Source of the DNA: Candidatus Bathyarchaeota archaeon
Lineage (GTDB): Archaea > Thermoproteota > Bathyarchaeia > 40CM-2-53-6 > RBG-13-38-9
DNA: 64,000 nt
Assembly (NCBI GenBank): GCA_963807605.1
Contig: CAWECG010000004.1
Location: forward strand, 256,001-320,000
Direction of reading: 5' to 3'
The position numbers and the translations under genes are program-made. Below the pieces are notes generated by a model. The model was not told where the DNA came from. It saw only the letters and a program-made list of their open reading frames with translations, and ran no database searches. How positions within the stretch are numbered: the stretch's first letter is position 1; every line of letters begins with the position of its first letter. Of this stretch, positions 492 to 21,465 are shown in pieces.

Positions 492-497
492 TCGCCT

Positions 498-737
498 ATG
501 TTTGAAGATGTGATTCAACTCGTACTCCTAGTTGCGGCGTGTATCTTCGCAATATTGACTGTTGAACTTAGAGATCTCCTGCACACTGTAGTATCTCTCG
601 CAGCCATGGCCGTTTCACTCGGAGCGATATTTTGGCTTCTCAATGCGCCGTATGTAGCAGTTTTCCAGATACTCATCTACGCAGGCGCCGTTATAGTGCT
701 CTTCATAGCAGCTGTCATGCTGACGAGGAGGAAGTGA
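498..737 (+). CDS. nuoJ: NuoJ-like subunit, N-terminal part
   Basis: Three TM segments; LNAPYVAVFQILIYAGAVIVLF motif. Confidence 0.85.
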   Translation: MFEDVIQLVLLVAACIFAILTVELRDLLHTVVSLAAMAVSLGAIFWLLNAPYVAVFQILIYAGAVIVLFIAAVMLTRRK

Positions 738-738
738 A

Positions 739-1343: not shown

Positions 1344-1348
1344 AGTGA

Positions 1349-3205: not shown

Positions 3206-3210
3206 GGTAA

Positions 3211-4695: not shown

Positions 4696-4699
4696 AGAA

Positions 4700-6205: not shown

Positions 6206-6335
6206 GAAGGAAGCGATCTGGGAGTTCCTGGGTAGGCTGAAATTCTCTCCTTCCGTCAAAGCATAATTTTAATTCTGATCGAATAGAAACTCGGTCGTGA
6301 ATCTTCAATTCTTCTCTTAGAAGGTAGATTCCTGC

Positions 6336-6845: not shown

Positions 6846-6862
6846 TTATTCGAAGGAAGGAT

Positions 6863-7474
6863 CTACGAACCCTCTGAATGGTCTACCGTTGCATTCTTGA
6901 GTCGGGCATAGTCTTCCTCTCTATCTACGTCGAATAGAATTTCAGGAGAGTCGATTTCAACAATCTCGACATCATTCCTGTGCCTTTCCAGGATTCCTCT
7001 TGCCCCCACATCCCCTGAAAGTGATAGAAGATCGCTCTGGTACTTCCTAGAAATAATGACTGGATGTCCCCTTGCCGATCTATAAGCTAACGTAACGATT
7101 CCCGTGCTGCCCGAGGCGTACCTTCTAATTAGCAAATCGATAATTTCAGTTCTTATCAGTGGTTGATCGGCTAAAGCGAATAGAAAAGCCTCGGTTTCAG
7201 GATTGCTAGAAGTTATTCCACATTTTATGGAAGTACTGATTCCTTCCCTGTACTGTCTGTTCACGACGTATGTGATCCTTGGGTCGCAAGAAGTCAGTGA
7301 ATTCTTCAGCTTCTCGGCGTCATGTCCTAGCACTATTACGAGCTCGTCGATCTTCGAGGCGAGAAGGTTCTTAACAGTCTCTCCGAAGATTGTCGATTTT
7401 CCAAAGCTGAGGAGCTGCTTTGTTCTCCCCATTCTTGTCGATTCGCCAGCAGCTAGCAAGATTGCCGAGATCAA
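6863..7474 (-). CDS. mocA: molybdenum cofactor cytidylyltransferase (MocA/YgfJ family)
   Basis: ILLAAGESTRMGRTKQLL, LADQP, GHPV, GDVGAR and DVD motifs. Confidence 0.85.
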   Translation of the reverse strand: MISAILLAAGESTRMGRTKQLLSFGKSTIFGETVKNLLASKIDELVIVLGHDAEKLKNSLTSCDPRITYVVNRQYREGISTSIKCGITSSNPETEAFLFALADQPLIRTEIIDLLIRRYASGSTGIVTLAYRSARGHPVIISRKYQSDLLSLSGDVGARGILERHRNDVEIVEIDSPEILFDVDREEDYARLKNATVDHSEGS

Positions 7475-7504
7475 GACGACTCTCCATGACAGCAGCTAGC
7501 AATT

Positions 7505-8326
7505 CTATTGTGTAACTTTGGCTAGTCCTTTTGTACTGAGCGTTCTGATGGCTTCAAGGACACCTTCACCGATAATTGCTGAACGTTCGGCTATTAGGAA
7601 ACAACGTTCTTTCTCATCTCTAGGATCGATGTCTCCAAGCTTGAGATTCATTTTCACTATAGACCCGTCACGCATGATCCCTCTCAAAACACCACCGACA
7701 TTTGCTTTGACGTCCAGACCATCAACCATGGCTACGGCTTGACCTGCCTCCACGTGTTCTCCGATCGGCACGATTAGACGTAATGTGCCGTCTTGTGGTG
7801 CCCTTAGGATCCTTTCATGGCTCTTGCCGTTAATTTTGCACGGGGTGCCATGAAAAGACTGGGCAGTTCCATGGTAGTAGGGTTTTCCCAACTCCGGCCC
7901 TTCACTTGTTTCTATGACCGCATGCACGTCTTTTCCGGCTTGAAAACCTGGGCCGAGTCCGATTGTAACAGGTGCGTCACTCAGTTTGGTTCCCGTGTTT
8001 CTTTTGGCCATTATGGCGTCTATGACTATGTTGGGTTTGAGCTTCTTAATGATCTCTGCCTTTGGATCAACAATGATTGGAATTTTGCCCTGCGCTATCG
8101 TGCGATCAATCTCTTCGGGGTTTACCCTCTTTGCCCTCAGGCCCTCAACTTCCCATTCGTTTTCGTAGACAGCTTCAGAAAATGCGACGGCCCTTCTCTC
8201 TGTTGTTGGAGCAGGAATTTCCGTCATGACAATTCGGAAATCCTTTCTGATTAAGGCGTGGGCTACCCCAGTTGCAACATCTCCTGCACCCTTGACGAGG
8301 ACCGTGGGGGTTTTTCTCTTGTTCAT
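7505..8326 (-). CDS. yqeB: selenium-dependent molybdenum cofactor biosynthesis protein YqeB
   Basis: KGAGDVATG, RRAVAFSEA, DAIMAKRNTGT, IGLGPGF and GDIDPR motifs. Start moved to the ATG at 8326, just after the upstream stop. Confidence 0.88.
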   Translation of the reverse strand: MNKRKTPTVLVKGAGDVATGVAHALIRKDFRIVMTEIPAPTTERRAVAFSEAVYENEWEVEGLRAKRVNPEEIDRTIAQGKIPIIVDPKAEIIKKLKPNIVIDAIMAKRNTGTKLSDAPVTIGLGPGFQAGKDVHAVIETSEGPELGKPYYHGTAQSFHGTPCKINGKSHERILRAPQDGTLRLIVPIGEHVEAGQAVAMVDGLDVKANVGGVLRGIMRDGSIVKMNLKLGDIDPRDEKERCFLIAERSAIIGEGVLEAIRTLSTKGLAKVTQ

Positions 8327-8328
8327 TT

Positions 8329-9360
8329 TCAGCCTCTTCCGAAAGGGCATGTGGGGTAGGTACATTCGTTGCACTTCAAGCAGAGTCCACCGTGGCCCAA
8401 GGCAACTATGTCCCTCCGAGTCAAATGTTCCCCCGCTAGAATCCTCGGAAGAACCAAGTCCAGAATGGTTGTGTCATAGTACATCGCGCATGCCGGTATA
8501 CCTAGAAGCGGAGTGCTGTCGAGGTAAGAGATCATGAACATGAATCCGGGTTGAACAGGCGCTCCGTACTTCTCTATTGAGGCATTTGCTTCCAAAGCAC
8601 TGCGTAGGGTTACATCATCAGGATCCACTGCCATGCCTCCTGTGGCGATTATTAGGTCCACGCTTTGCTTTCTCATTTTCGAAATTTCACTTACGATCTT
8701 GTCTGTGTTGTCTGGAACATACACTACCCTCTCTATACTTGAACCAAGTTTTCCGATCTTTCGTTTCATGACGGGGGCAAACTCATCTTTTATGAGGCCG
8801 TTATAGACTTCGTTCCCCGTTATTATCAGGCCTACTCTATTCTTCTTGAGCGGAATAACGTTGACGATGGGACCGGCGTTCTTGCAGATATCCGATACTT
8901 TTCGAATCTTTTCTTCCTGAATTATGAGCGGGAAGATCTTGGCAACCGCTACCCTTTCTCCGGTCTTCACCAGACGGTCTGTGTGTTGTGTGGCGACACC
9001 GAGGCCGTCTATTTCATTTATTTCTTGCAGTCTCTCAACATCTATCTTAAGTATGCCATTCTTCTCTGCCACAATTACGGAACTCCCCTCGTTTGGGCTG
9101 AGTGAGCTCACGTTTTTGCCGGAGATTGCTGCAGCTAGCTTTCGAGCACCGTCTTCTTCGTGAAGTTCCCCTGGTTCGATCTCGAGTATGTATATGTTTT
9201 CTCTACCGATCTTGCGGAGTTCTTTCAAGTCCTTCTTCCGTATTATGTGCCCTTTCTTGAAGAGAGTCCCTTTGAATCTTCCACGTCTGGTTATCCTTGT
9301 AACATCATGACTTAGAACCTTCCCGACAGAATCTCCAAGACTTACTACGATCCTTTTCAA
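8329..9360 (-). CDS. molybdopterin-binding (MoeA-like) protein
   Basis: VLSHDVTRI, TGNEV, TGGMAVDPDDVT, YGAPVQPG motifs and C-terminal GGLCxxCxxCxYPxC. Confidence 0.85.
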   Translation of the reverse strand: MKRIVVSLGDSVGKVLSHDVTRITRRGRFKGTLFKKGHIIRKKDLKELRKIGRENIYILEIEPGELHEEDGARKLAAAISGKNVSSLSPNEGSSVIVAEKNGILKIDVERLQEINEIDGLGVATQHTDRLVKTGERVAVAKIFPLIIQEEKIRKVSDICKNAGPIVNVIPLKKNRVGLIITGNEVYNGLIKDEFAPVMKRKIGKLGSSIERVVYVPDNTDKIVSEISKMRKQSVDLIIATGGMAVDPDDVTLRSALEANASIEKYGAPVQPGFMFMISYLDSTPLLGIPACAMYYDTTILDLVLPRILAGEHLTRRDIVALGHGGLCLKCNECTYPTCPFGRG

Positions 9361-9432
9361 AATCGTTCACACCTCTATGAACTCCAATCATGACTCAGTG
9401 TATCAATTCATGGTGAGCTGGCGTCAATCTCC

Positions 9433-9783
9433 TCAGACAAATTGCTCAACATCCTTCTCCGACGACTGCAAAGCCAGATGTTGAACTATCCTAGTAATCT
9501 TTCTGTTAGTTTCTCCAACAATCCTATAGAGTTGGTACAGTATTCCAAAAAGTATGATGATGGAAAAGCTTGTCACAAATTGTATTGGTGTTGCCATCCC
9601 GAGAGCGGAAGTCACGATAAGATACATTTGCGGGTAAATCCCTGTGAGCATGAGGCCCACCCAGATCGCTGTCCAAACGAGGAATGTCGACAACCCTATG
9701 CTGCCTCTCCTGTATCCTCTGAATGTGTATGCGGCCATTGCGAGGCCCAGTAACACAACGACTAGTCCGTAAGTTTCTAACAT
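9433..9783 (-). CDS. DUF2304 family membrane protein
   Basis: Three TM segments and KITRIVQHLAL tail; typical partner of a GT2 gene. Confidence 0.75.
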   Translation of the reverse strand: MLETYGLVVVLLGLAMAAYTFRGYRRGSIGLSTFLVWTAIWVGLMLTGIYPQMYLIVTSALGMATPIQFVTSFSIIILFGILYQLYRIVGETNRKITRIVQHLALQSSEKDVEQFV

Positions 9784-9808
9784 AGGGAATGATGCCTCCT
9801 GTTTTCGG

Positions 9809-10468
9809 CTACTTAGGGTTTAAGGCGTTATAAAGGATCTTTACTGCGTCGCTAATACCGACTCCCCTCAGGCGTCTCTTGAAGTACAGGGTCTTTATTG
9901 GGACAGCGATTATTCGAAGTTCTTTCTTAGATGAGACAATCAGCATCTCAGAGGCCCAACGGTAGTCTATTGATCCGTGCTTGGCTATCTCGGCAACCTT
10001 ACGGGAAAACGCACGAAACCCCGACTGTGAGTCGTCAATCTTAGTCCCGCAAGCTAGTGAAGTTGCGATTGACAGGGCTTCATTACCGATCCTCTTGTAG
10101 AACGGCATCGCCGAGCTGCCCTTCAACATTCTCGAGCCGATGACTATGTCTGCCTTTTCGTCCAGTAAAGGCGCAATTACCGATGGGATGTCGGTTGGAT
10201 CATGCTGCCCGTCTCCATCAAGGGTCACAATGATGTCGGCGCCGTTGCGTAAAGCCAGAGATAATCCAGTTGAGAGAGCAGCCCCCACACCTAGCCTAGT
10301 TACGTGCCTAGCTACTCTTCCTCCCGCGTCTCTGGCGTTTTTTGCTGTTTTGTCATTACTTCCATCGTCTACAACTAGTACTAGATTACAGTGACTCCTA
10401 GCCTTCTCTACAACTGCTCCTATGGTTGATTCTTCATTGAAGGCTGGGATAACACAGACTACTCGCAC
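9809..10468 (-). CDS. glycosyltransferase family 2 (polyprenol-phosphate glycosyltransferase-like)
   Basis: IPAFNEE, VVDDGS, DGDGQHDP and DSQSGFRA motifs. Confidence 0.92.
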   Translation of the reverse strand: MRVVCVIPAFNEESTIGAVVEKARSHCNLVLVVDDGSNDKTAKNARDAGGRVARHVTRLGVGAALSTGLSLALRNGADIIVTLDGDGQHDPTDIPSVIAPLLDEKADIVIGSRMLKGSSAMPFYKRIGNEALSIATSLACGTKIDDSQSGFRAFSRKVAEIAKHGSIDYRWASEMLIVSSKKELRIIAVPIKTLYFKRRLRGVGISDAVKILYNALNPK

Positions 10469-10548
10469 TCAGAAGCACCGGTCTCTTATATTATCGAAAT
10501 AGTCGGAGGCAACGAGACCTTCGAAACACTCATTCCAGAAAAAGATTC

Positions 10549-10556
10549 CTATTTCT
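10549..10556. repeat. 8-bp target duplication/spacer CTATTTCT, copy 1 (others at 14456-14463 and 18483-18490)
   Basis: Identical 8-mer directly abutting terminal inverted repeats at all three positions. Confidence 0.9.
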
Positions 10557-10741
10557 GGCTTTGTCAAGTCTCCGTCGGTTCGGTTAGTTCTAGGCGGCTG
10601 TCAAAAGTCGTCGGCTACTGCAAGGTGAACTAGGTTTTGAATGACACAGAACTAGAACAGAAAATCGTACTACTTGAGAGAAGAATAAAAAGGCTGGAAA
10701 ACCGTTCCAAAGATGAGTTCATATTCCGAGCGTTTGTTGGA

Positions 10742-11623
10742 CTACTGTTCCTTCTCTTCTTGCTTCTCATTGCGTTTCGCTAGTTTCTTCTTGATTTGGT
10801 TGTAAAACTCTATATCCGAACCCCAGATCGAAGGAATGACTTGAAACAAAAGAAAGTAAGCCCCTATTCCTATGGCTCCAAGGGCAAACAATGGATTATA
10901 GACAACATCATTGATAATGAGATAAATCGGGTTTTGACTGGTTTCAACTGTGATCGAGACGGTTGTTGTGGCGAGATATCTTGTGACAAAGCTAGGACTT
11001 GTAGGTGTTAGTACATTCGCTGATACGTGGTCGCCCATCCCTATCGAGTCACTGATTGTGGGCTTGAACGCCATGTGATTGGGTATTTGATTCACGTCTT
11101 GTTGGTATATGAATTGGGCTGCATCTTTGGCATTTATAAAGTAGTCACCTGAAATGTCAGCCGTGAGTACAAAGAGAATCAGGGGAACTTCTATTTTTGA
11201 GTTGGCGTAGGTTAAGACGTTCTTTTCCAGTAGGACGTATTTGCCTAGAGTGGCGAATTGGTAGGGGAAGAGGTTGTTGAATGTATCATTGTAATCCATC
11301 ACAACATTTGGTCGGTTTGATTGAATTGTGGCAAATATCAACGCGACATGATCGGAGTTGTACGGCGAAGATTGTAGAACGACTACTTGGAAGGAATGTT
11401 GTACATCGTGGTATAGTGTAAGATTTTCCTTTATACTATCGAAATCTGGTCTGTTGATATAAGTTGAGTTCTTTAAGAGTTCGTTGTAGCTGTCTATTAG
11501 ATTGAGTACATATCCCACAGTTTTGTTGTGTTCTGGCAGCCTGTATTGAGCGAGGACTTTTCCTTGAATGCTAGAGAACATTAATAACACAAGGAATAAA
11601 GTGAGGATGGTTACTTTTCTCAA
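10742..11623 (-). CDS. hypothetical secreted, membrane-anchored protein (cargo)
   Basis: Signal-like N-terminus LRKVTILTLFLVLLMF from the TTG at 11623; C-terminal TM segment and charged tail. Confidence 0.6.
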   Translation of the reverse strand: MRKVTILTLFLVLLMFSSIQGKVLAQYRLPEHNKTVGYVLNLIDSYNELLKNSTYINRPDFDSIKENLTLYHDVQHSFQVVVLQSSPYNSDHVALIFATIQSNRPNVVMDYNDTFNNLFPYQFATLGKYVLLEKNVLTYANSKIEVPLILFVLTADISGDYFINAKDAAQFIYQQDVNQIPNHMAFKPTISDSIGMGDHVSANVLTPTSPSFVTRYLATTTVSITVETSQNPIYLIINDVVYNPLFALGAIGIGAYFLLFQVIPSIWGSDIEFYNQIKKKLAKRNEKQEEKEQ

Positions 11624-11633
11624 ACATGATTGA

Positions 11634-11783
11634 TCAGTCAACCAGATTCTTTCCCTTGAAATATTCCCCAAGCACAGCACGGACGGTTTCTGGAATAGTT
11701 TCTAGTTTACGTGATTTCCTTTCGATCTCTAGTGCCTTAACCATTTCGTCTGACATACTCACCATTATCTTTTGCATTGGCAT
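11634..11783 (-). CDS. ribbon-helix-helix (CopG-like) regulator, 49 aa
   Basis: Hand translation MPMQKIMVSMSDEMVKALEIERKSRKLETIPETVRAVLGEYFKGKNLVD*; clearly homologous to the N-terminus of 16412-16879. Below the ORF-track cutoff. Confidence 0.8.
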   Translation of the reverse strand: MPMQKIMVSMSDEMVKALEIERKSRKLETIPETVRAVLGEYFKGKNLVD

Positions 11784-11793
11784 ATCGATGACA

Positions 11794-11854
11794 CTACCAT
11801 TAGATACCTATAACAACCTTTATAAATCTGTTGCTACTAGATATCTAATGGTAG
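11794..11854. promoter_or_regulatory. divergent promoter/operator of unit 1
   Basis: Perfect 13-bp inverted repeat CTACCATTAGATA (11794-11806) / TATCTAATGGTAG (11842-11854) around the palindromic TATA box TTTATAAA (11819-11826). Confidence 0.75.
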
Positions 11855-11864
11855 CGATTGGAAT

Positions 11865-13016
11865 ATGCGAACCGAGAAGCCTGTTGATGAAGGTCGTTTG
11901 ATGAGAGGACAACAAATAGCGAAGCTAGATCATCAAATCAAACGGCTAGATGACAAAACCTACCAAGTCAACTCACAGTCAGGTCACGGCTTATACACAG
12001 TGGTTAAGGGTTATCGTGATTGGCGTTGCAGTTGCCCCGACCACATGTACCGAGAATTGAAGTGCAAGCATATTTGGGCAATCGAGTTTAGCCTCAAATT
12101 AAGGGATAGGGTAAGAGAAAACGTTGTAATTCAACCTGTCACAATTAACACATGTCTGTACTGTCAATCCAAGGACATAATCAGAGATGGCTTACGACAT
12201 AACAAGTGTGGAGACATTCAGGTTTTCAACTGTAAATCTTGTGGTCGATACTTCACATTAAACCTCGGCTTCGAGCACATGAAACATAATCCGCATGGAA
12301 TCACAACAGCCATGCAACTGTACTTCTCAGGGGAGAGCCTCCGCAACACAGCTAGGTCGCTACGCTTGATGGGAGTTCAGGTTAGCTATCAGACTGTATG
12401 GAATTGGATTCAGAAGTACACGACTCTGATGGAGAAGTATCTGGACAAGATCACGCCTCAAGTTTCTGAGGTTTGGCGAGCAGATGAACTCTACGTGAAG
12501 ATTCGAGGCAATATGAAGTATGTCTTTGCCATGATGGATGATGAGACACGCTTCTGGATAGCTCAGGAAGTTGCGAGTAGCAAGGAAGCGCATGATGCAA
12601 GAAACTTATTCCAGATGGCTAGGGAGAGAGTGGGAAAGAAGCCTCAGATTCTAGTAACAGACGGCTTACGCTCTTATCATGATGCTTGGTTGAAAGAGTA
12701 CCGAACCAATAGGTTAGCTGATAGTACCATTCACATCCACAATATCACACTTGAAGGAACCCACCATAACAACAAGATGGAACGCTTCAACGGCGAAGTC
12801 AGAGACAGAGAGAAAGTTATGCGAGGACTGAAGAAACCTGATACGCCGATTCTGAAGGGTTATCAGATATTCCATAACTACGTAAGACCGCATGAAGGAT
12901 TAGAAGGTAAGACCCCTGCCGATGTGGCGGGAATCAAGGTTGAGGGAGAAAACAAGTGGGTCACACTAATCCAAAACGCAAGTCGTCTCCCGAAGGTTGA
13001 CAGCAGAAGCCCCTAG
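11865..13016 (+). CDS. IS6-like DDE transposase with N-terminal SWIM and C4 Zn-ribbon domains
   Basis: CSCPDH..CKH (SWIM), CxxC..CxxC, HTH region, WRADELY / VTDGL / NNKMER catalytic triad, HNYVRPHEGL.GKTPA tail. Confidence 0.92.
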   Translation: MRTEKPVDEGRLMRGQQIAKLDHQIKRLDDKTYQVNSQSGHGLYTVVKGYRDWRCSCPDHMYRELKCKHIWAIEFSLKLRDRVRENVVIQPVTINTCLYCQSKDIIRDGLRHNKCGDIQVFNCKSCGRYFTLNLGFEHMKHNPHGITTAMQLYFSGESLRNTARSLRLMGVQVSYQTVWNWIQKYTTLMEKYLDKITPQVSEVWRADELYVKIRGNMKYVFAMMDDETRFWIAQEVASSKEAHDARNLFQMARERVGKKPQILVTDGLRSYHDAWLKEYRTNRLADSTIHIHNITLEGTHHNNKMERFNGEVRDREKVMRGLKKPDTPILKGYQIFHNYVRPHEGLEGKTPADVAGIKVEGENKWVTLIQNASRLPKVDSRSP

Positions 13017-13107
13017 ATCATCTAGTTGAAGGAACCAGAATTCCCACTAGATTCTAGAAAGAACATACTGTGAAAACTTAAAATCTTGGGACTTTAATCA
13101 TTTTTGA

Positions 13108-13383
13108 GTGATTTCTTTGGAACTTGCAAGGATGATCTATGATGTCATGAGGATACTAGATGAAGCTACGAAATTTGTTAACAAGAAGATCAGCGACTCA
13201 AGAGACGATCATGAAAGACAATGCTACGAGGATTATAGGAAGCACATAAGGGAACTTGGCACGTCTGTCTATACGTTGATAGGTAAGATGAGAATGGACA
13301 GAATACTAGATCCCAAAGAAGTGGAAATGCTGGAGCAGATGGGAGCAATGGGTCTCCAAATAGCGGAGGAGCCAATTGCATGA
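13108..13383 (+). CDS. hypothetical protein (cargo)
   Basis: 91-aa helical-looking ORF; ATGA overlap with the next gene. Confidence 0.55.
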   Translation: MISLELARMIYDVMRILDEATKFVNKKISDSRDDHERQCYEDYRKHIRELGTSVYTLIGKMRMDRILDPKEVEMLEQMGAMGLQIAEEPIA

Positions 13384-13604
13384 GTTCGACAGATAAATTC
13401 AAGAATGCTGTTGAAAATGCGAAGAATTTTCTTTCCGTGCAGGGAGGGTTCTATTCTACATTTCTCCAACTAAAGGAAGTTGTTGAATCTGACAACAAAT
13501 GGATCATAAAATTCGACTATACTGCGTTTACTGAAACAGCAGTACTTCAAGTAGATGTTGACATGGAAAAGGGAGAAATAGTCGGTTTCAGGCGTGTAGG
13601 ATAA
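13380..13604 (+). CDS. small hypothetical protein, PepSY-like pattern (cargo)
   Basis: AVENAKNFL...WIIKF...VDVDMEKGEIV pattern. Confidence 0.55.
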   Translation: MSSTDKFKNAVENAKNFLSVQGGFYSTFLQLKEVVESDNKWIIKFDYTAFTETAVLQVDVDMEKGEIVGFRRVG

Positions 13605-13672
13605 TCATTGAAGAGCGGGAGTAACACTGACTAGCCAGAGGGCGTGTTGAGACAGCTCTATTGTGATGAAGA

Positions 13673-14218
13673 ATGTCCGAGTCGAATGCAGCCATAGCTG
13701 GTGCAGTTGTTGGTGGCATTATCGCCATATGTGGAAGCGTTGTATTCTATTTCGTAACTCATAGAGCCGAGTATAGGGAACTTAAAGACCGTTCGCTAAA
13801 AGACCTGATTGCAGAACTTAAGCAGAACAAACGGTATCAACTCAGAAATCATTACATTGACCTAGAAGACAGTGCGTACAAACGACTTAGAGAAGGCGGA
13901 TTTTTTCATACGTTTTCCAATGATTTGCAAAGCGACTTACAGGAACTCTATGCTTTCATTCACGAAAAAAACGGATTGATTGCTTACTACAATAGTGTTG
14001 GTGCAATTGGCTTGGCAGAGTCAAAAAATCTGAGCGCAAACTTTCTTCCACCGTGGAACGCTGCGCAGAGTAAGGCGCTTGGCGACATTTTAGGCATCAT
14101 CAAAAGTAAAGAAGAAAAAATCGCCTCGTTGATTGATAAAATCCTTCCCGCCCTTAGAAATCTGCTTAGAGACCCAATCACTAGCAAAGAGACCCAATCC
14201 CAATCACTAGCAAACTAA
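13673..14218 (+). CDS. hypothetical protein with N-terminal TM segment (cargo)
   Basis: AIAGAVVGGIIAICGSVVFYF followed by a helical soluble region. Confidence 0.6.
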   Translation: MSESNAAIAGAVVGGIIAICGSVVFYFVTHRAEYRELKDRSLKDLIAELKQNKRYQLRNHYIDLEDSAYKRLREGGFFHTFSNDLQSDLQELYAFIHEKNGLIAYYNSVGAIGLAESKNLSANFLPPWNAAQSKALGDILGIIKSKEEKIASLIDKILPALRNLLRDPITSKETQSQSLAN

Positions 14219-14233
14219 CTTCTACAACTCGGC

Positions 14234-14355
14234 AACTTAACAGAACCCTCATTTGTATTTTTTCGCGTCCCGCCACTTGACACCCTAACTCTCATTCAGA
14301 GCGCAAGTCCCAACACGTAACAGGGAGAAGCATGTCCTATGAACGTAACAGAACC
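14234..14355 (-). repeat. nested internal IS-end motifs inside unit 1
   Basis: AACTTAACAGAACC (14234-14247), GTCCCGCCACTTGACACCCT (~14267-14286), GTCCCAACACGTAACAG (~14307-14323) and AACGTAACAGAACC (14342-14355), all in right-end orientation. Confidence 0.75.
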
Positions 14356-14455
14356 CGTTGCTGAATACCAACTTCTCAAGGCATTAACTGAGCCAAACCG
14401 ATGAAAGTTGACAACAAGGAGAAACTAAGGCAACCGACGCAGACTTGACAGAACC

Positions 14456-14463
14456 CTATTTCT
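14456..14463. repeat. CTATTTCT spacer, copy 2 (unit 1 / unit 2 junction)
   Basis: Junction reads TTGACAGAACC-CTATTTCT-GGTTCTGTTAA. Confidence 0.9.
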
Positions 14464-14737
14464 GGTTCTGTTAAGTTGAAGGCTCATTCATTGTCTTTGT
14501 TTAGGTTTTCTAGGCTGTTAACCGTCAGCCCTTTTCGTTATCCCAGTTGGAGGTGTCATTCCAGCGGTGTCATATATGCGTACTAGGAGACCTCTTACTT
14601 TTCGTCAAATACTTGCCTTGATCGGAGGTAGCTTAATTCTTGGAAGTATTACGGTAGTCCTTTTTGTGTCCAACCACATTGCTGCGACATACTTCATGGC
14701 GTACAATACCACAGCGTACGGTGTGATATTACTAGAT

Positions 14738-15166
14738 CTATTCAAGGAGAAGCCTGAGAATCATAACCGACACAATGAGAGTTAGAATAATGCCCGCTAC
14801 CCTCACAACTGCGTCAAGAAGTGGCGAGACAGCAAGAGGAGGAAATAGGTATTCACAGACATAATCTAACATAAGGCCAGGGATAATCCCCACTTGGAAT
14901 GCAATTCCGGCAATGAATGCGATTCGCGCCCCGTTAGTACACTCCCTAGCAACTGATGAGGGTATCCAATCATCTGAAACTCCAAGTGCCATCAGCAAGA
15001 CATACGCACTCCAATATGCCATCAAGAAAGCTACCAGAGATCTAAGATGTAGCCCGCCAAATAAAGTAACATCGAAGAGATCCCGGATTGCTAATAGCGT
15101 TCCAAGAACACCGAGTACGAATATGCCTCGAATTTCCTCTCTAACAAGTTGGGAGTTTTCTTTCAT
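14738..15166 (-). CDS. hypothetical multi-pass membrane protein (cargo)
   Basis: About four hydrophobic segments; co-oriented with and directly downstream of transposase 2. Confidence 0.55.
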   Translation of the reverse strand: MKENSQLVREEIRGIFVLGVLGTLLAIRDLFDVTLFGGLHLRSLVAFLMAYWSAYVLLMALGVSDDWIPSSVARECTNGARIAFIAGIAFQVGIIPGLMLDYVCEYLFPPLAVSPLLDAVVRVAGIILTLIVSVMILRLLLE

Positions 15167-15195
15167 GAATAATTGTTACGCAATCGGAAGGTATT

Positions 15196-16323
15196 TCATT
15201 GTTTGCTTGCGTTCTGGATTATTGTCAGCCACTTGTTCTGTCCTTTGATTTCTATTCCCGCTGCTTCTGCTGGCGTTTTGCCGTCTAACCCTTCATGTGG
15301 ACGAACATAGTTATGGTAGATTTGATAACCTTTGAGAATTGGTGTATCTACGTTCTTCAGGCCCCGCATGACCTTCTCTCTGTCTCTGATTTCACCGTTG
15401 AGCCGTTCCATCTTATTGTTGTGGTGTGTGCCAGCTAACGTAGTGTGGCTAATATGGGTCGTACTAGTCTCTAGCTGGTTAGTTCTGAATTCCTTCATGT
15501 AGGCTTCATGGTAAGATCGTAAACCGTCAGTTATGAGAATCTTGGGCTTCTTCTCCGTCACTTCTTTACCAATCTGGAATAGGTGCCTCACATCATGTGC
15601 ATATTTTGAATCAGCCACTTCCTGAGCAATCAGGAATCTTGTTTGGTCGTCCATCAGCGCGAATAGGTATTTCATGTTGCCCTTGATTTTAATGTACAAC
15701 TCATCAGATCGCCAAGTGCCTGAAACTTGTGGTGTTATCTTGTCTAGGTACTTCTCCATCAGACCCGTGTATTTCTCTATCCACTTGTAGACAGCAACAT
15801 GCGAAACCTGAACACCTTGAAGCCTCAAGAATTTCTGAACATTCCGTAGTGATTCTCCTGTGAAATATAGTTGCATGGCTGAAGTGATCGTTTGTGGAGT
15901 AGCTTTCATTCGTTCAAAGCCCAAATTGATCACAAACCACTTTCCACAGTCCTTGCACATGTACCGTTGAATGTTTCCACTTAGGTTATGGCGTAACCCA
16001 TGTCTCACGATATTCTGAGAGGCACAAGAGATGCAGACTTGTGTGTCGAGAGGTTTGATTACTACTTGGTTGCTGACTTCGGCTCGTAGTGCTTGCGAGA
16101 ATTCGACAGCCCAAATATGCTTACACTTAACCTCACGATAGATATGGTCGGGGCAACTGCAATCCCAACCTCGACCACGCTTAACAACTGAGTAGAATCC
16201 TTGACCTGATTGTGAGGTTACTTGGTAGGTCTTCTCATCTAGACGTTTCACTTGATTCCCAATTTTGACTATTGCTTGAGCCTTCATTACGCGGCTTTCG
16301 GATAGGGGTTGTTCGGTTCTCAT
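15196..16323 (-). CDS. IS6-like DDE transposase with SWIM and Zn-ribbon domains, second diverged copy
   Basis: Colinear with 11865-13016 (roughly two-thirds identical by eye); WRSDELY / ITDGL / NNKMER intact. Confidence 0.92.
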   Translation of the reverse strand: MRTEQPLSESRVMKAQAIVKIGNQVKRLDEKTYQVTSQSGQGFYSVVKRGRGWDCSCPDHIYREVKCKHIWAVEFSQALRAEVSNQVVIKPLDTQVCISCASQNIVRHGLRHNLSGNIQRYMCKDCGKWFVINLGFERMKATPQTITSAMQLYFTGESLRNVQKFLRLQGVQVSHVAVYKWIEKYTGLMEKYLDKITPQVSGTWRSDELYIKIKGNMKYLFALMDDQTRFLIAQEVADSKYAHDVRHLFQIGKEVTEKKPKILITDGLRSYHEAYMKEFRTNQLETSTTHISHTTLAGTHHNNKMERLNGEIRDREKVMRGLKNVDTPILKGYQIYHNYVRPHEGLDGKTPAEAAGIEIKGQNKWLTIIQNASKQ

Positions 16324-16339
16324 GTGAATACATCTGTTG

Positions 16340-16402
16340 CTATTGATATCAATAGATACTACACAAGTTATTTATAAGAGTTGTGGCTATTGATATCAAT
16401 AG
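16340..16402. promoter_or_regulatory. divergent promoter/operator of unit 2
   Basis: Two identical 16-bp palindromes CTATTGATATCAATAG (16340-16355, 16387-16402) flanking TTTATAAG (16371-16378). Confidence 0.8.
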
Positions 16403-16411
16403 GTATCGAAC

Positions 16412-16879
16412 TTGGGTATGAAGCGATTCATGCTCTCAATAACTGAAGAAATGGAGAACGCACTTGACAGAGAGCGAGAGAAGCGGATGCTTGGATCGAT
16501 ACCAGAGACGGCAAGAGTAATTCTAGGTGAGTATTTGACAAAGGTTGATCCACTAACTCCAATGGTAATCGGTGATTTCTACTTCGAATTTGGAGAAATC
16601 GAGGATGTAATGAGAGTAGCTGCATTCGTAACCCCCAACAAGCCAAACATCCTATCAAAGCCGATTCCAAATGAAACTACGCGTATAAACAGACTGAAGA
16701 AATTGTTCAGTGATCTCGCAAGACTACAACCGTACAAAGTAGAAACTGGGCAAGTGGAGATGATATTGGCTCAAGGAACGCAAGTGGATGTTCCAGCAAT
16801 CAGAGCCAACCTCTCAAAAAAAGACAAAACGGAAATGACAATGAAAGAAGTTGTAGACCTAATTGGAAAACATCTCTAA
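16412..16879 (+). CDS. RHH-domain regulator fused to an unknown C-terminal domain
   Basis: MKRFMLSITEEMENALDREREKRMLGSIPETARVILGEY aligns with the unit-1 RHH; about 110 extra residues follow. Confidence 0.75.
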   Translation: MGMKRFMLSITEEMENALDREREKRMLGSIPETARVILGEYLTKVDPLTPMVIGDFYFEFGEIEDVMRVAAFVTPNKPNILSKPIPNETTRINRLKKLFSDLARLQPYKVETGQVEMILAQGTQVDVPAIRANLSKKDKTEMTMKEVVDLIGKHL

Positions 16880-17327
16880 GAGGCAATGCCTTGCCAACAA
16901 AGCGAGAGAACGAAGGCGCTATGCTTAAAGATCATATCCAGAATGTTTACCCATGTCACACAGGATTGTGTGACAAAGTAACAAAGAAGAAATATGACTG
17001 TCAAGAGATGTCCATGCGACGGAAGTCCATTGTCTTTCAAAGTTTACTGCCCGCAGTGTGGACACGACCATTTGCTCTAGCAAATTCCCCTATTCTTCTC
17101 GTGAGTGGTCTGCCCTCCTCACCCAGTCTGATCTGAATGCAGGTGAAGCAGGAATGGTATGAAGTCAGTGGCGGACTTACACCAATTCTGTTGCACAACA
17201 TGATTTAGACGAATGGGGCGTCTACGAACTGATTTCGCCATAACGAGACGATATAGCGCACGCTAGAGCCGAAGACGCAAACGATTAAATATGGATTAGA
17301 AAAAAACAATTCTAACGGCTTTATTCT

Positions 17328-18188
17328 ATGCTACAACGGAGTCACAATGATGTTGTACGGAGTCACAATGATGTTGTACGGAGTCACAATGATGTTGTAC
17401 GGAGTCACAATGATGTTATACGTAATTTGCTTGTGTTATTTCTGATTGTATTGCTCCTCCCAATTATTGTAAATCCTGCTCACCCGGATTCGCAGTATAT
17501 TCTTCATGTTCAGACGCCTATCGGCGAGTTCGTTACCATATCTTATAGTGGAGACTATGTCGGCTCCAACAGCACACCTTTCACTATCGGCCCTAAATCC
17601 GCCCCTTTCACTGTAACATTGACGGCTCCCTCAAAATACGTCGATCAGGTGTTGGAGGGTTGGATTCTTGATGGTGTGAGTATGGGAAATTCAAATACAT
17701 CAACAGTCACGGTAAACGAGAATCATAGCGAGAGGGTAGCTGCAGCTGGCTATGTTACTAATTTCGCGGTCGTTGAATGGGTTAGTTTTAGCAGCACTCC
17801 TATAATCGACGTTCCCATGAATTCGGGCGCGACTTACTATACCCCTTTTTACAGAACGGGCGTCCCCTTGGGGGTACACGCTAGTGTAACTGCTCCTCTC
17901 ACCTACAGAGGTTACACTTTTAATGGCTGGCTCGCTGACGGGCTCTGGATTCCTACCCCATCAATAAGTCTCTATGCGATTGGCGTCAATGAATCTAGAT
18001 CGGCTACAGCGTACTATTCGCTTATCACACCACCAAGCGCCCAAACAAGACCGGTCGGCGGCGTCGTGGAACCCGTCAACAAACTCACACTTTTCACACC
18101 ATACTTGGCCGTCTTTGGAGTGGTCGCGGCTGTTGCAGTCGTCATCGTCACGGATAGGAAACGCAGAGAACTCACAAATAGTCAGTGA
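17328..18188 (+). CDS. secreted/surface protein with repeated beta-rich domains and C-terminal PVGG-TM anchor (cargo)
   Basis: Signal segment, two repeats of the type VTLTAP...F/LxGWxxDG, C-terminal PVGGVVEPVNKL-TM-RKRR. Confidence 0.7.
   Translation: MLQRSHNDVVRSHNDVVRSHNDVVRSHNDVIRNLLVLFLIVLLLPIIVNPAHPDSQYILHVQTPIGEFVTISYSGDYVGSNSTPFTIGPKSAPFTVTLTAPSKYVDQVLEGWILDGVSMGNSNTSTVTVNENHSERVAAAGYVTNFAVVEWVSFSSTPIIDVPMNSGATYYTPFYRTGVPLGVHASVTAPLTYRGYTFNGWLADGLWIPTPSISLYAIGVNESRSATAYYSLITPPSAQTRPVGGVVEPVNKLTLFTPYLAVFGVVAAVAVVIVTDRKRRELTNSQ
17336..17422 (+). repeat. 21-bp tandem repeat x4 (ACGGAGTCACAATGATGTTGT)
   Basis: Three perfect copies plus one with a single mismatch; encodes (RSHNDVV)n. Confidence 0.95.
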
Positions 18189-18482
18189 GCTGATTTCGGA
18201 ATCCCTGCTGGTTTTGTGTGTACCTTAGCTGGCGAGAGCATCTAGAAATCAAATTCACTTTGCGCCGAGCGTAAATTGGTCATAACTATTCGTATCAATT
18301 ATTGCGTATTTAAGCCCCCCACAAGTAACCCTGCCGAGAAGGGTTCCTAAATTAGCTGTCAAGCTACTGGAAATCCCTATGGGGAATCTCCCGAACTTGA
18401 CAGAACCCTCCGATGAGCCGACGGTTAACAGCCCAAAAAACCCAGTCGATTTCCAAGCATGAGCCGATATCTTAACAGAACC

Positions 18483-18490
18483 CTATTTCT
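18483..18490. repeat. CTATTTCT spacer, copy 3 (unit 2 / unit 3 junction)
   Basis: Junction reads TTAACAGAACC-CTATTTCT-GGTTCTGTCAA. Confidence 0.9.
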
Positions 18491-18689
18491 GGTTCTGTCA
18501 AATTGACGGGAACATAAGCAGCCGTCAGTTAGGGTGTCACCTGGCGGGACATGAAAAGGTTCTGAGGTTCTGGTAACATCACGTCTTCGACTACCTAATA
18601 GTGTTGTAACAAATCGGGTTGATTCTGATTCAGAACGCAAGTCAAAAGTAGTAAGTGGCTTAAACATATGCCCCGAGAGGTGAGAGAAT

Positions 18690-19007
18690 ATGAGCAGTAA
18701 AGAAGGCTCGATTCATCTAGAATGGAAATACGCTGACGATTTCAAGCGTGTTTACGCCACTAATGCATTTGGGATCGTTGGAGAGTACGACTATAGGCTA
18801 CTGTTTGGTGGGGGCAATGTGCTTTTGCAGCAAGACCCCAATTCCATACCCAAGGCGCAAGGAGAGTACAATGTTGAGTTGGTTTTTTCATTTAGGACTC
18901 TGAAAGAGTTGCGAAACATGGTCGATGAAGCAGTTAAGAATGTGGAAATGCGCTTTGGCGAGATCAAGTTACCGAAGAAGCCAGAGGACTACTTCAAGCA
19001 ACCTTAA
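18690..19007 (+). CDS. DUF3467-like hypothetical protein
   Basis: FKRVYATNAFG...DYRLLFG...LKELRNMV pattern. Confidence 0.55.
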   Translation: MSSKEGSIHLEWKYADDFKRVYATNAFGIVGEYDYRLLFGGGNVLLQQDPNSIPKAQGEYNVELVFSFRTLKELRNMVDEAVKNVEMRFGEIKLPKKPEDYFKQP

Positions 19008-19033
19008 CAAATTATCTATCACTAGGCAAAAGA

Positions 19034-19348
19034 CTACTCGGAAGAACCTGATGATTTCTGACCCGTCATCTTCTTTAGCAATTCCAAAGGCACTTTTGTT
19101 TTGACGATGGGTTGAATCTTGTAGGTATAGATTCGTTCTCCTTTTGAATCATAACATTATGTTCTAGCAGCATTCAGTAATTCCAACTTAACACTGATGG
19201 TTACTTGATCTGTTGTACGATAAACATTCCACTGATCTTGTGTCTTGACCTTGATACTATCATCCAGTTCTTCCTCTGTGAACTGAACAAGTTCATCCGG
19301 AGTATAATGCTTAGTAGATGGTTCACCCCAAAACTTCTCTGGCACCAC
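19034..19348 (-). pseudogene. 5'-truncated hypothetical gene with an in-frame TAA
   Basis: ORF 19157-19348 continues in frame past TAA (19157-19159) as CYDSKGERIYTYKIQPIVKTKVP... to TAG at 19034-19036. Confidence 0.55.
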
Positions 19349-19398
19349 AACTACGCTCTAGCGTGCGCTTGTATCTTGCCTGAGCAGGACTTCAGGGT

Positions 19399-21465
19399 TC
19401 AGGGTGGAATGTAGTTGAGGCATCTTAGGGCATAGTTGAGTGAAACGAAGAGAAAAGTGACCATGAATAGGATCTGACAAAGTCTACCCAGACGCCCACC
19501 CAGCCCGCCAAGTCTTGTCGATACAGTTGCAGCCCCAAAAACAGCGAGGATTTGGTATGGAACCATATAGAGCAGTCTCCACTGCCAAAACGAAGTCTCC
19601 ACCAGTAGTGGTATTGAAGTCACCAAAAGTAATGAGAATAGCAGTCTGCTCAGGTTACTATTGAAGCCTCTCGCCGAAGCTAAGCCTACAATAGAGAGCA
19701 AGATTAGGATCGGATTTGCGAAGAAGCCGCCTACGTAGTATTCGAAGGTGAACGAAAAAATGGTGAGAAAACTCGATAGATTGTTCAGACTTATAGATGC
19801 AAGTCCTTCGCTCGCGAGCCGGATAAACTCCCCCGTTGAGAACAACGAAATGACCAGTAAGAGCAGCGCGAGATTAGCGGCCACGACTATGATGCTCGAT
19901 TTCAGAAACTGACTTTTGGGCAGAGAACGTTTGGTTATCAAGGTCCGAGGAAGACTTAAGACTACAAATACTCCGAGAGCCGTGAGCACAACCGCCCAAG
20001 TCCAAGCATGTATTACAAGAGTGACTACACTGCCAAAGATCACCATCAGCACGTGCGAATTTGAAGGTTGCTGCCACATCAATACCAGAAGGCTGAAGAA
20101 AAGTGCAGTCCACCCGAGCGCAAGCCAATTCGCGAAGGTACCTGCAAAAATTCCGACGGTTGTCGCTATCGAGAACAAACCAATAAACGCCGAGAAGGAG
20201 GCTAAGACATCGTCTCGCGTGATAGTCCTGAATAGTAGTAAAGTTGCTACTCCCACTAACGTTGCTGGAACTGCTGGACCGATTTTGACCACGAGCTCAG
20301 CTGGAAATGAGGTTAGAACTTTGATCGCATACAGTATTAGCAAGTAGGGTACTCTACTTGCACCGCCGTAACTAGAGATTATGTGGTGGAAACCCTCTGA
20401 GGTTGACATTGCAATAAGATTCTGATAGTACCAAGGTGTATCTACGCCGATGAGTCTTTTTGTGTAGAAATAAGGATAGTATACAAGGAACAGGGAGCTG
20501 CATACTATCGCGGGGATGGTTAGATACACAAGATATTTGTGATTCCTGGACGACCGAGTGAGGGCGTCGTTGTTTATGGAGTAGAGAGGTTTATCAGTTG
20601 TTGACATACGACGAGGTATCACGTTTTCTTGATGATGAACCCCAGCCGAGAACCCGAGTTGTTTGACAAGAGATCGTAAGCAGGGAATCCACAACCATGA
20701 GAACATTAGAGCTGCCAGAGCGGGCAGAGCAACAGGATAGAGAACACCGAGAAGTTTCACCTCAAGCGAAGCGAAGAGCCATCTTGGTTCACCATCAAAG
20801 GGAACGTGTGGATTCAGGGTGTTGTATAACCAGCCAGCGGCAGAGCCTATCTCTATTACGAGGGCTGTCGTTAGAAGTGAAGCTACGAATCCCAGCGCGA
20901 GGCCTTTAGGGTTTTCAACTACTTCGGCCCCACGAAGCAATAAGGGAAAGAATGCGGTTACCACTGCCGAAACGATTCCAAAGAATGCTGCAGCCAGGTT
21001 TATGCCCAAGAGATAAAAAGCAATAGAAGAGAATATGAGCAGAATTGGCAGAATTGTGACTCGTCTCCTAAGAAGCACCTTATTTTGGAGTGCTATCCAA
21101 GCCGCCGCCACGGTAAGACTGAAAGCGACCCACAGTAGCCCATCTGTCTGAGGACCGAAGAACTGTACCTGGACTATGTTCGGAGTATAGGCTAAGTAGG
21201 ATTTTATCCCAATTGAACTTGTAAGTATCGGGAGACTGAAGAGGAGAATGAATGAAGTTAGGACCGAGATTAAGACATGCAGGACTTTGCGTCCGAAACG
21301 AAATGCAAGAATGAGTATCGCTACAAGGACAAGTCCATATAGCGGCAGAGCAATGCTTGCTGGCCCAAATTGGCTTGGAGTTCGTGTCAATAGCGATATA
21401 GTACGCGCGCGCGTCAGCACAGCAATGAGCTGAACTGTCTGCATGTATCTGCCAAGCATAACCAA
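19399..21465 (-). CDS. multi-pass membrane protein, probable GT-C glycosyltransferase
   Basis: More than 15 TM segments; loop motif LIGVDTPWYY; HAWTW motif. Confidence 0.6.
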   Translation of the reverse strand: MVMLGRYMQTVQLIAVLTRARTISLLTRTPSQFGPASIALPLYGLVLVAILILAFRFGRKVLHVLISVLTSFILLFSLPILTSSIGIKSYLAYTPNIVQVQFFGPQTDGLLWVAFSLTVAAAWIALQNKVLLRRRVTILPILLIFSSIAFYLLGINLAAAFFGIVSAVVTAFFPLLLRGAEVVENPKGLALGFVASLLTTALVIEIGSAAGWLYNTLNPHVPFDGEPRWLFASLEVKLLGVLYPVALPALAALMFSWLWIPCLRSLVKQLGFSAGVHHQENVIPRRMSTTDKPLYSINNDALTRSSRNHKYLVYLTIPAIVCSSLFLVYYPYFYTKRLIGVDTPWYYQNLIAMSTSEGFHHIISSYGGASRVPYLLILYAIKVLTSFPAELVVKIGPAVPATLVGVATLLLFRTITRDDVLASFSAFIGLFSIATTVGIFAGTFANWLALGWTALFFSLLVLMWQQPSNSHVLMVIFGSVVTLVIHAWTWAVVLTALGVFVVLSLPRTLITKRSLPKSQFLKSSIIVVAANLALLLLVISLFSTGEFIRLASEGLASISLNNLSSFLTIFSFTFEYYVGGFFANPILILLSIVGLASARGFNSNLSRLLFSLLLVTSIPLLVETSFWQWRLLYMVPYQILAVFGAATVSTRLGGLGGRLGRLCQILFMVTFLFVSLNYALRCLNYIPP

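What the first reader, a model, noticed from the sequence alone, without database searches (positions are those of the whole stretch)
10549..19360. Integron-like tandem array of cargo-carrying IS6-like transposons stacked at one 8-bp site (CTATTTCT)
Seen: CTATTTCT-[unit 1, 10557-14455]-CTATTTCT-[unit 2, 14464-18482]-CTATTTCT-[unit 3, truncated]. Each complete unit is about 4 kb, has its own matched TIR pair (GGtTcTGTyAAG core) and its own diverged transposase, and carries completely different cargo. Units 1 and 2 have opposite transposase orientation. Known: IS6-family elements have GG...TGT ends and 8-bp target duplications, but typically show little target specificity, are under about 1.5 kb and carry no cargo. 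Inference: distinct elements inserted repeatedly into the same site or next to a resident end, regenerating the 8-mer each time. This would be a DDE-driven gene-cassette array functionally analogous to an integron. I do not recognise this as a described system, but cannot check the literature.
Basis: partly seen in the sequence, partly recalled or inferred. Interest (0 to 1): 0.92.

Follow-up and report, generated by a model that had tools for sequence, protein, structure and literature searches.

The report
Promoter-docked stack of archaeal cargo transposons
Three different gene-carrying jumping elements have piled up, one after another, at a single spot just in front of a gene's promoter in an archaeon, because this apparently undescribed family lands at a fixed distance from the archaeal TATA box, and that landing pad survives every insertion.

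Summary
The array is real: CTATTTCT at 10549, 14456 and 18483 separates two complete ~4-kb units (transposases 67% identical, opposite orientation) and a decayed third. Relatives have an empty ~100-bp spacer here.

The 8-mer is not the target signal. About 160 homologous loci (Bathyarchaeia, Nitrososphaeria, Methanosarcinales) give 65 complete 2-9 kb cargo units with unrelated 8/9-bp TSDs; 28 other loci show the same end-TSD-end junction. At 27 of 43 distinct host sites a TATA-like box starts 4-7 nt outside the TSD on one side (controls 1-2), with BRE-like bases. Downstream genes are mostly housekeeping (rpS8e, rpL2, rpS17e, thermosome, TBP). Nine loci hold different units at one rpS8e promoter, most of them alone.

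Insertion leaves the promoter-side site intact, so arrays grow at the promoter end and decay distally; here the anchor is a conserved promoter-like motif of the GT2 gene. It is not an integron. TBP/TFB tethering versus direct DNA readout is untested.

Bacterial (TnGBS/ISKra4) and yeast (Ty3) promoter targeting are known; I found no archaeal description. This scan noted archaeal promoter targeting before, in DPANN genomes, and a similar array elsewhere.

The parts
9809..10468 (-). Host GT2 glycosyltransferase gene, whose upstream promoter-like motif anchors the array
   Evidence: PF00535 E 7e-23; adjacent to the ortholog of 19399-21465 in relatives
10538..10548 (-). BRE/TATA-like motif (GAATC then TTTTTC) directly outside the first TSD; a weak TATA match
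   Evidence: Same register as the family motif; GGAAnnTTTTTC is conserved upstream of GT2 in element-free relatives L102 and L103. Promoter function is inferred
10549..10556 (+). TSD copy 1, CTATTTCT
10557..14455 (+). Unit 1, complete 3,899-bp cargo transposon, promoter-proximal (inferred youngest)
   Evidence: Ends 82% complementary over 33 nt; TSD on both sides; sister element with a 90% identical transposase at C1:3420-7748
10742..11623 (-). Unit 1 cargo: 293-aa protein with predicted N- and C-terminal membrane segments, no family
   Evidence: No Pfam, NCBIfam or Atlas hit; start as called in L202
11634..11783 (-). Divergent 49-aa RHH/CopG-like gene (core module); an inverted repeat at 11777-11871 is a likely operator
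   Evidence: homologs upstream of the transposase in more than 35 loci. RHH fold inferred from the sequence pattern, no Pfam hit
11865..13016 (+). Unit 1 transposase, 383 aa: SWIM (C55 C57 C67 H69), C4 Zn ribbon (C97 C100 C123 C126), HTH, DDE (D207 D266 E306)
   Evidence: PF13610 E 4e-16 and SWIM; NF033587 IS6 119 bits, cutoff 125; invariant columns; model pLDDT 78
13108..14218 (+). Unit 1 cargo: ORFs of 91, 74 and 181 aa, no family
   Evidence: the 181-aa ORF has a homolog in array locus L163
14234..14355 (-). Two relic inner ends (tips at 14247 and 14355) inside unit 1
   Evidence: an uninterrupted copy of the outer 100 bp at C2:55090 diverges exactly at the 14355 tip
14456..14463 (+). TSD copy 2, end-8bp-end junction
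14464..18482 (-). Unit 2, complete 4,019-bp cargo transposon, transposase in opposite orientation
   Evidence: Ends 73% complementary over 85 nt; TSD on both sides
14567..15166 (.). Unit 2 cargo: two small membrane proteins (72 aa +, 142 aa -)
   Evidence: homologs of the 142-aa ORF in L159 and L042
15196..16323 (-). Unit 2 transposase, 375 aa, same architecture, 67% identical to unit 1
16335..16879 (+). Two palindromic operator-like sites (16335-16405) and a divergent gene whose first 44 aa are the RHH-like core
17328..18188 (+). Unit 2 cargo: 286-aa surface-protein-like ORF with a 21-bp tandem repeat at its start and a C-terminal anchor shared with three host loci
18394..18407 (-). Relic inner end 75 bp inside the right end of unit 2
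18483..18490 (+). TSD copy 3, end-8bp-end junction
18491..19360 (+). Unit 3 remnant: left end, DUF3467 gene (18690-19007), no transposase or right end; promoter-distal (inferred oldest)
   Evidence: the DUF3467 homolog lies just downstream of a transposase in L122
19399..21465 (-).

Best explanation
This is an insertion array built by an archaeal family of IS6-related unit transposons (core: SWIM/Zn-ribbon/HTH/DDE transposase, divergent RHH-like gene, bipartite GGTTCTGT ends, 1-8 kb of variable cargo). The family inserts at a fixed distance upstream of BRE/TATA promoter elements: the last TSD base is the -6 position of the BRE, and the TATA-like box starts about 5 nt further out. The staggered cut duplicates whatever 8-9 bp lie there and leaves TSD+BRE+TATA intact on the promoter side. 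The next incoming relative therefore cuts at the same nucleotides and pushes older units away. Arrays grow at the promoter end; older, distal units erode by deletion to transposase-less units and end stubs. Here the anchor is the GT2 upstream motif, so unit 1 is the newest and unit 3 the oldest. Shown by sequence comparison: unit structure, TSDs, motif register, downstream genes, independent repeated use of one site, distal decay. Inferred: that the motif is an active promoter; that targeting works by tethering to TBP/TFB or by reading the same DNA, most plausibly through the extra N-terminal SWIM/Zn-ribbon region; that the RHH-like gene autoregulates the transposase; that inner ends are scars of nested insertion plus deletion that also swap cargo.
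For: TATA-like box starting 4-7 nt outside the TSD on one side at 27/43 distinct host sites, on both sides at only 1; random positions mean 1.1 (max 5), shuffled flanks 2.3 (max 8), shifted windows 1-2; offset histogram peaks at 5. Anchored on the box, -3 is A in 75%, -4 A in 64%, -6 purine in 75%, matching the archaeal BRE (own knowledge). An ORF starts 30-150 nt downstream on the motif side at 15/21 sites vs 4/21 on the other side. The genes include rpS8e, rpL2, rpS17e, rpL1, thermosome (twice), TBP, DnaG, RNAP B and Hsp20. Nine loci hold different units at one rpS8e site, seven of them alone, in both orientations, with four TSD variants, mostly sharing only the 1.1-1.5 kb core. Close transposases occupy different promoters. 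Back-to-back ends are spaced 8 (23 cases), 9 (3) or 7 (1) bp among 30 pairs within 60 bp. Polarity: in 10 long-flank arrays (7 host sites) the only intact outer end is on the motif side (9/10 by the strict pattern). L060 reads promoter / 3,139-bp intact unit / 1,249-bp transposase-less unit / 38-bp stub / 14-bp stub, with a derived TSD variant only on the proximal copies. Empty site in six relatives.
Against: 16/43 sites do not match my pattern, and one 5,240-bp unit also sits at a site without a TATA match (L166). The pattern and the 4-7 window were fixed after seeing the flanks (controls used the same pattern). The motif at this locus is a weak T-run, yet three or more units stacked here, and about a third of TSD groups show stacking (29/89). 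That is more than uniform use of roughly a thousand promoters would give, so hot promoters or resident ends must add to it. No transcription start data and no reads. Loci are kin and several come from one metagenome series, so counts are not independent.
Confidence: 0.78

Rival explanations
1. End-targeted stacking: the first insertion is loosely promoter-biased, and later elements are drawn to a resident end through its transposase-binding repeats and insert flush against it.
For: High stacking rate (29/89 TSD groups); three units at a weak motif in this window; inner ends cluster 37-95 bp inside outer ends (14 of 23); IS26 targets resident copies about 100-fold (PMC7986276).
Against: Seven different units sit alone at the same nucleotide of the rpS8e promoter, so no resident end is needed. 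Growth appears one-sided, whereas either end should attract. IS26 targeting needs identical transposases and ends and does not duplicate the target; neighbours here are 67-83% identical. It may still act as an added bias.
Confidence: 0.12
2. Sub-hypothesis on mechanism: the transposase itself reads an asymmetric DNA motif (CAAnnYTTAWA) that coincides with BRE/TATA, with no host factor.
For: The identical unit in L165 and L166 has the same 6 bp next to the TSD at both sites although only one has a TATA match. The casposase of A. boonei reads a leader motif 8 bp from its TSD by itself (PMC6614799).
Against: The motif is degenerate, one-sided and 5-13 bp outside the cut, and its conserved positions are those bound by TFB and TBP (own knowledge). 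Strong housekeeping promoters are reused repeatedly, as occupancy-driven tethering predicts.
Confidence: 0.35
3. Survivor bias: insertion is random or AT-seeking, and only insertions just upstream of promoters survive selection.
For: Intergenic insertions are the least harmful in compact genomes; not all sites match.
Against: Selection would allow a broad upstream window, not a peak of 19 at one offset with at most 2 beyond offset 8. It cannot make many independent units cut at the same nucleotide.
Confidence: 0.05
4. Misassembly or tandem duplication.
For: No reads could be laid on junctions 2 and 3.
Against: The units share no long near-identical DNA (transposase genes 69% at DNA level). Junction 1 is confirmed by an independent contig. 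The same architecture occurs in 28 other loci.
Confidence: 0.02

Closest known systems
IS6/IS26 family, especially the long Zn-finger clades and tIS ISDsp3 (PMC7986276, PMC6807381)
   Same: GG..CTGT ends with G at position 7, 8-bp TSD, DDE domain best matched by the IS6 models, N-terminal Zn ribbon as in the long clostridial members.
   Different: Units are 2-9 kb with several passenger genes (family: about 0.7-1.8 kb, one passenger-carrying member); extra SWIM domain; bipartite ends; divergent RHH-like gene; fixed promoter register. IS26 arrays form conservatively between identical copies without a TSD.
TnGBS / ISLre2 / ISKra4 p-MULT elements (PMC3942029)
   Same: Prokaryotic DDE elements, some with cargo, that insert at a fixed distance (15-17 bp) upstream of a promoter element and so spare genes.
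   Different: Bacterial sigma-A -35 box instead of archaeal BRE/TATA; Mutator/IS256-type enzyme; mostly oriented insertion (here 18 toward, 19 away); no stacking found in the passages read.
Yeast Ty3 (10.1101/2021.07.27.453949)
   Same: DDE integrase placed at a precise position by a TBP-containing general transcription factor, giving harmless integration; the model for the tethering hypothesis.
   Different: Retrotransposon, Pol III genes, integrates near the transcription start rather than upstream of the BRE; contact shown by cryo-EM, whereas none is shown here.
Tandem casposons (PMC6563490, PMC6614799)
   Same: Archaeal TIR/TSD cargo elements stacking at a regenerated site defined by an off-centre leader motif.
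   Different: Cas1 enzyme plus PolB, one fixed gene target (aEF-2 or tRNA), 14-15 bp TSD in A. boonei; here an IS6-like DDE uses many different promoters.
P-element tandem dimers by double insertion (10.1101/158386)
   Same: End-8bp TSD-end junctions made by repeated insertion at strong, promoter-near sites.
   Different: Eukaryotic, copies of one element, no nucleotide-fixed register to a core promoter box, no variable cargo.
Integrons
   Same: Polarised array of variable cargo, newest unit next to a fixed promoter-bearing site.
   Different: No tyrosine integrase, attI/attC or promoterless cassettes; the host promoter points away from the array; each unit is autonomous.

Membership tests
IS6/IS26 family | DDE transposase of the IS6 type | tested here: inconclusive
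   Best match by far (NF033587 119 and 116 bits, E about 1e-34; PF13610 above cutoff) but below the NCBIfam cutoff of 125
IS6/IS26 family | Ends start GG with G at position 7 | tested here: met
   54 TSD-verified ends: G 0.94/0.98 at 1-2, G 0.98 at 7; criterion from PMC6807381
IS6/IS26 family | 8-bp target duplication | tested here: met
   8 bp in most elements, 9 bp in a minority
IS6/IS26 family | Compact element (0.7-1.8 kb), transposase only, ends hugging the gene | tested here: not met
   65 units with a full transposase: median 3,345 bp, range 2,031-9,197
IS6/IS26 family | Replicative cointegrate and targeted conservative pathways | not testable with these tools
   Junctions with a TSD between non-identical units do not fit the conservative route; the pathway is otherwise unknown
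IS6/IS26 family | Phylogenetic placement among ISfinder members | not tested
   No reference IS6 sequences were fetched; the tree holds family members only
Integron | IntI tyrosine recombinase next to attI | tested here: not met
   The flanks are GT2 and a membrane gene; no recombinase among the ORFs scanned
Integron | Non-autonomous cassettes bounded by attC | tested here: not met
   Units are bounded by TIRs and TSDs and carry their own transposase
Integron | Polarised acquisition at one site | tested here: met
   Distal decay in arrays, L060 gradient; order inferred, not observed
p-MULT promoter-targeting elements (TnGBS/ISLre2/ISKra4) | Mutator/IS256-type transposase | tested here: not met
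   IS256 model 31 bits, ISLre2 15 bits, against IS6 119
p-MULT promoter-targeting elements (TnGBS/ISLre2/ISKra4) | Insertion at a fixed distance upstream of a promoter element | tested here: met
   27/43 sites, peak offset 5 nt, for BRE/TATA instead of -35
Casposons | Cas1 casposase and family B polymerase | tested here: not met
   Neither among the unit ORFs scanned
Tn7-like | TnsC ATPase and TniQ/TnsD target selector | tested here: not met
   No such families among 136 cargo representatives or the window ORFs

The most novel reading that the evidence does not exclude
A widespread archaeal DDE transposon family co-opts the basal transcription factors TBP/TFB through a SWIM/Zn-ribbon module to integrate exactly at the upstream edge of the BRE. 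This turns strong housekeeping promoters into self-regenerating, polarised landing pads for variable accessory cargo: a prokaryotic counterpart of Ty3-TFIIIB tethering that also builds integron-like arrays without an integron.
Probability: 0.4. Interest if true: 0.85.

Novelty: new variant of a known kind. Interest (0 to 1): 0.7.

Why it matters
A single-protein DDE transposase that carries several kilobases and integrates at a nucleotide-fixed position beside TATA-box promoters gives a direct test of whether basal-factor tethering, known from yeast Ty3, already exists in archaea, whose TBP/TFB are homologous to the eukaryotic factors. It explains how strain-variable gene islands build up in front of ribosomal-protein and chaperonin genes in Bathyarchaeia, Nitrososphaeria and Methanosarcinales without harming them. 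The arrays keep a rough chronological record of acquisitions. It could also give a compact safe-site integration tool for archaea. A 2019 survey listed cargo-carrying composite DNA transposons as undetected in archaea (PMC6563490); archaeal Tn7 elements with cargo have since been reported (10.1101/2025.07.27.667033), but I found no paper on this family or its targeting in the library searched.

Tried and rejected
Sequencing runs: none was listed, so no reads were laid; this is no evidence either way. Complex prediction of transposase 5-200 with TBP and the TFB core: no verdict, not evidence for or against. Exact-protein look-ups of both transposases: not on record. PDB sequence search: only weak integrase hits; Foldseek gives generic DDE/integrase matches (ISCth4, intasomes, MuA, TnsB). 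Atlas: no usable hit for the unit 1 membrane cargo; only SWIM clusters for the N-terminus. First de novo end search had a pattern bug, fixed. The test of flank similarity against transposase identity timed out and was not repeated. An ncRNA reading of the rpS17e flank was rejected: Rfam blank, Pfam S17e hit. I first took the 688-aa gene to be cut by unit 3; its C-terminus is intact. End-targeting was my first reading (about 70%, stated) and was dropped. A genome-wide BRE logo from the own genome was too noisy to use. Ten literature searches found no description of this family or of BRE/TATA-anchored transposition in archaea; the library lacks most subscription journals and ISfinder/TnCentral were not available.
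Full report
Observation. The three CTATTTCT copies are at 10549, 14456 and 18483. The word alone is only slightly over-represented (7 vs 2.96 expected), but these three abut transposon ends. A de novo search for paired ends with a duplicated flank finds unit 1 (10557-14455), unit 2 (14464-18482) and both junctions; shuffles of all loci give no elements and at most one junction. The transposases (11865-13016 +, 15196-16323 -) are 67% identical. They carry a SWIM motif, a C4 zinc ribbon, an HTH and an IS6-type DDE domain. Both units also have a divergent ~45-aa RHH-like gene with inverted repeats in the shared leader; homologs sit upstream of the transposase in more than 35 loci. Ends are bipartite, and three relic inner ends lie at 14247, 14355 and 18407. 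Unit 3 keeps a left end and a DUF3467 gene but has no transposase or right end. The units are AT-richer (42-45% GC) than the flanks (47-48%). An independent short-read contig matches window 1-12035 at 100%, covering the first junction. Junctions 2 and 3 rest on this assembly and on the recurrence of the architecture elsewhere.

Empty site. In six genomes of the same family the two flanking genes are neighbours, about 100 bp apart, with no transposase. Two of them keep GGAAnnTTTTTC at the position of the motif that lies directly outside the first TSD in the window.

The family. The own genome (2.65 Mb, 5 contigs) holds four full transposases, many fragments, dozens of ends, two more end-to-end junctions and two single elements with 9-bp TSDs. 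Scans of genome and metagenome contigs gave about 160 loci from Bathyarchaeia, Nitrososphaeria and Methanosarcinales. They contain 65 complete units with a full transposase, median 3.3 kb, range 2.0-9.2 kb, with 213 cargo ORFs in 165 clusters. Most cargo has no family; restriction-modification genes, NYN, Fic and proteases occur. One 5,240-bp unit with an RM system occurs at two different TSDs, so cargo moves with the unit. End-TSD-end junctions occur in 28 other loci with at least 16 groups of spacers, and back-to-back ends are 8 or 9 bp apart in 26 of 30 pairs.

What is fixed. Reading outward from the TSD, one flank carries a TATA-like box at a set distance. At 43 distinct host sites, 27 have the box starting 4-7 nt out, one has it on both sides; random positions give 1.1 on average (max 5), shuffled flanks 2.3 (max 8), shifted windows 1-2. 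The pattern and window were chosen after seeing the flanks, but the histogram is sharp: 19 at offset 5, at most 2 at any offset beyond 8. Anchored on the box, positions -3 and -4 are mostly A and -6, the last TSD base, is mostly a purine; this is the archaeal BRE pattern (own knowledge). An ORF begins 30-150 nt downstream on that side at 15 of 21 sites, against 4 of 21 on the other. The genes are largely housekeeping: rpS8e, rpL2, rpS17e, rpL1, thermosome in two genomes, TBP, DnaG, RNAP B, Hsp20. Element orientation is free (18 toward, 19 away). At one rpS8e promoter, nine loci hold different units, seven of them alone, in both orientations and with four TSD variants; most pairs share only the 1.1-1.5 kb core. 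Eight or nine loci do the same at rpL2. Close transposases are found at different promoters. So the site is reused without a resident end, and the register to the box, not the sequence cut, is kept.

Why arrays form and which way they grow. An insertion just upstream of the BRE leaves TSD, BRE and TATA intact on one side, so the site is regenerated there. This predicts growth at the promoter end and decay at the far end. In ten arrays with long flanks (seven host sites), the one intact outer end is on the motif side (nine by the strict pattern). L060 shows the full gradient: intact 3,139-bp unit, 1,249-bp unit without transposase, 38-bp stub, 14-bp stub. The two proximal TSD copies carry a variant absent from the distal copies and from other genomes. 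In the window the motif is on the GT2 side and the decayed unit 3 is farthest from it. Arrays match the motif more often than single elements (14/15 vs 24/40, Fisher p 0.02, hand tally of non-independent sites), as for P-element dimers at strong sites (10.1101/158386).

What is not settled. The GT2 motif is weak, and about a third of TSD groups are stacked, so hot promoters or resident ends may add to the bias. Whether TBP/TFB tether the transposase or the enzyme reads the DNA itself is open; the shared 6 bp at the two sites of one unit (L165, L166) hints at direct readout. The SWIM/Zn-ribbon region is the obvious candidate module by elimination only. Inner ends, clustered 37-95 bp inside outer ends, probably record nested insertion followed by deletion and may be how cargo is exchanged; this is inference. 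The transposition pathway is unknown.

Comparison. The enzyme, ends and TSD are IS6-like, but the score is under the NCBIfam cutoff and size and cargo fall outside the family as reviewed (PMC7986276, PMC6807381). IS26 arrays arise conservatively between identical copies, without a TSD, unlike these. Fixed-distance promoter targeting is known for bacterial TnGBS/ISLre2/ISKra4 (PMC3942029) and, through TBP-containing TFIIIB, for yeast Ty3 (10.1101/2021.07.27.453949). Stacking at a regenerated site is known for casposons (PMC6563490). It is not an integron. I found no paper describing this family, BRE/TATA-anchored transposition in archaea, or the resulting polarised arrays (ten searches; limited library). 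Earlier notes of this scan, which I saw after making the motif test, report the same kind of promoter targeting in DPANN genomes; an earlier look-up gave a polarised array that matches L060. I did not test whether the DPANN elements are the same family.

Verdict. Real; a new variant combining known behaviours (IS6-like chemistry, cargo, promoter-anchored safe-site integration, polarised stacking). Interest 0.70; the tethering reading has probability about 0.4 and would deserve 0.85.

Noticed in passing
window 19399-21465 (-): This membrane gene matches only the C-terminal ~660 aa of 1,005-1,034-aa orthologs; the N-terminal ~330 aa were not found in this genome by tblastn apart from two weak hits.
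   Followed up: partly
window 19010-19340 (-): A probable gene remnant of about 105 codons with one internal stop inside unit 3, no homolog among fetched loci.
   Followed up: no
window 17336-17419: Four copies of a 21-bp unit form the start of the 286-aa cargo ORF; its last 130-200 bp are 93-96% identical to three other places in the genome, suggesting a shared membrane-anchor module.
   Followed up: no
own genome; window 19356-19370: TAGCGCGCG occurs 183 times in the genome; variants lie at the right edge of unit 3 and beside several element ends. Possibly a small intergenic repeat.
   Followed up: no
own genome C1, C2, C3, C4 (L194-L201): At least six TBP-like genes, some partial, and two TFB loci; two TBP copies (C1:423151, C2:46916) share an upstream end-like sequence about 790 bp away.
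   Followed up: no
own genome C1:394755/394764 and C3:444428/444438: Two more end-to-end junctions (8 and 9 bp) whose outer TSDs are lost; triple nested ends at C3:453079-453572.
   Followed up: partly
L030, L042, L065, L163, L165, L174: Clusters of three or more transposase genes or fragments within 20 kb without junctions found by my end model; possibly arrays with other end types or nested islands.
   Followed up: no
L044, L165, L166, L181, L184: Units carrying a type I-like restriction-modification module (methyltransferase plus specificity subunit).
   Followed up: partly
L031 and L033: Related units sit upstream of the TBP gene at two registers matching two tandem TATA boxes, with different TSDs.
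   Followed up: partly
L104 (same-genus genome G001): GT2 and DUF2304 are missing between the membrane gene and the molybdopterin gene, so this interval is variable within the genus.
   Followed up: no
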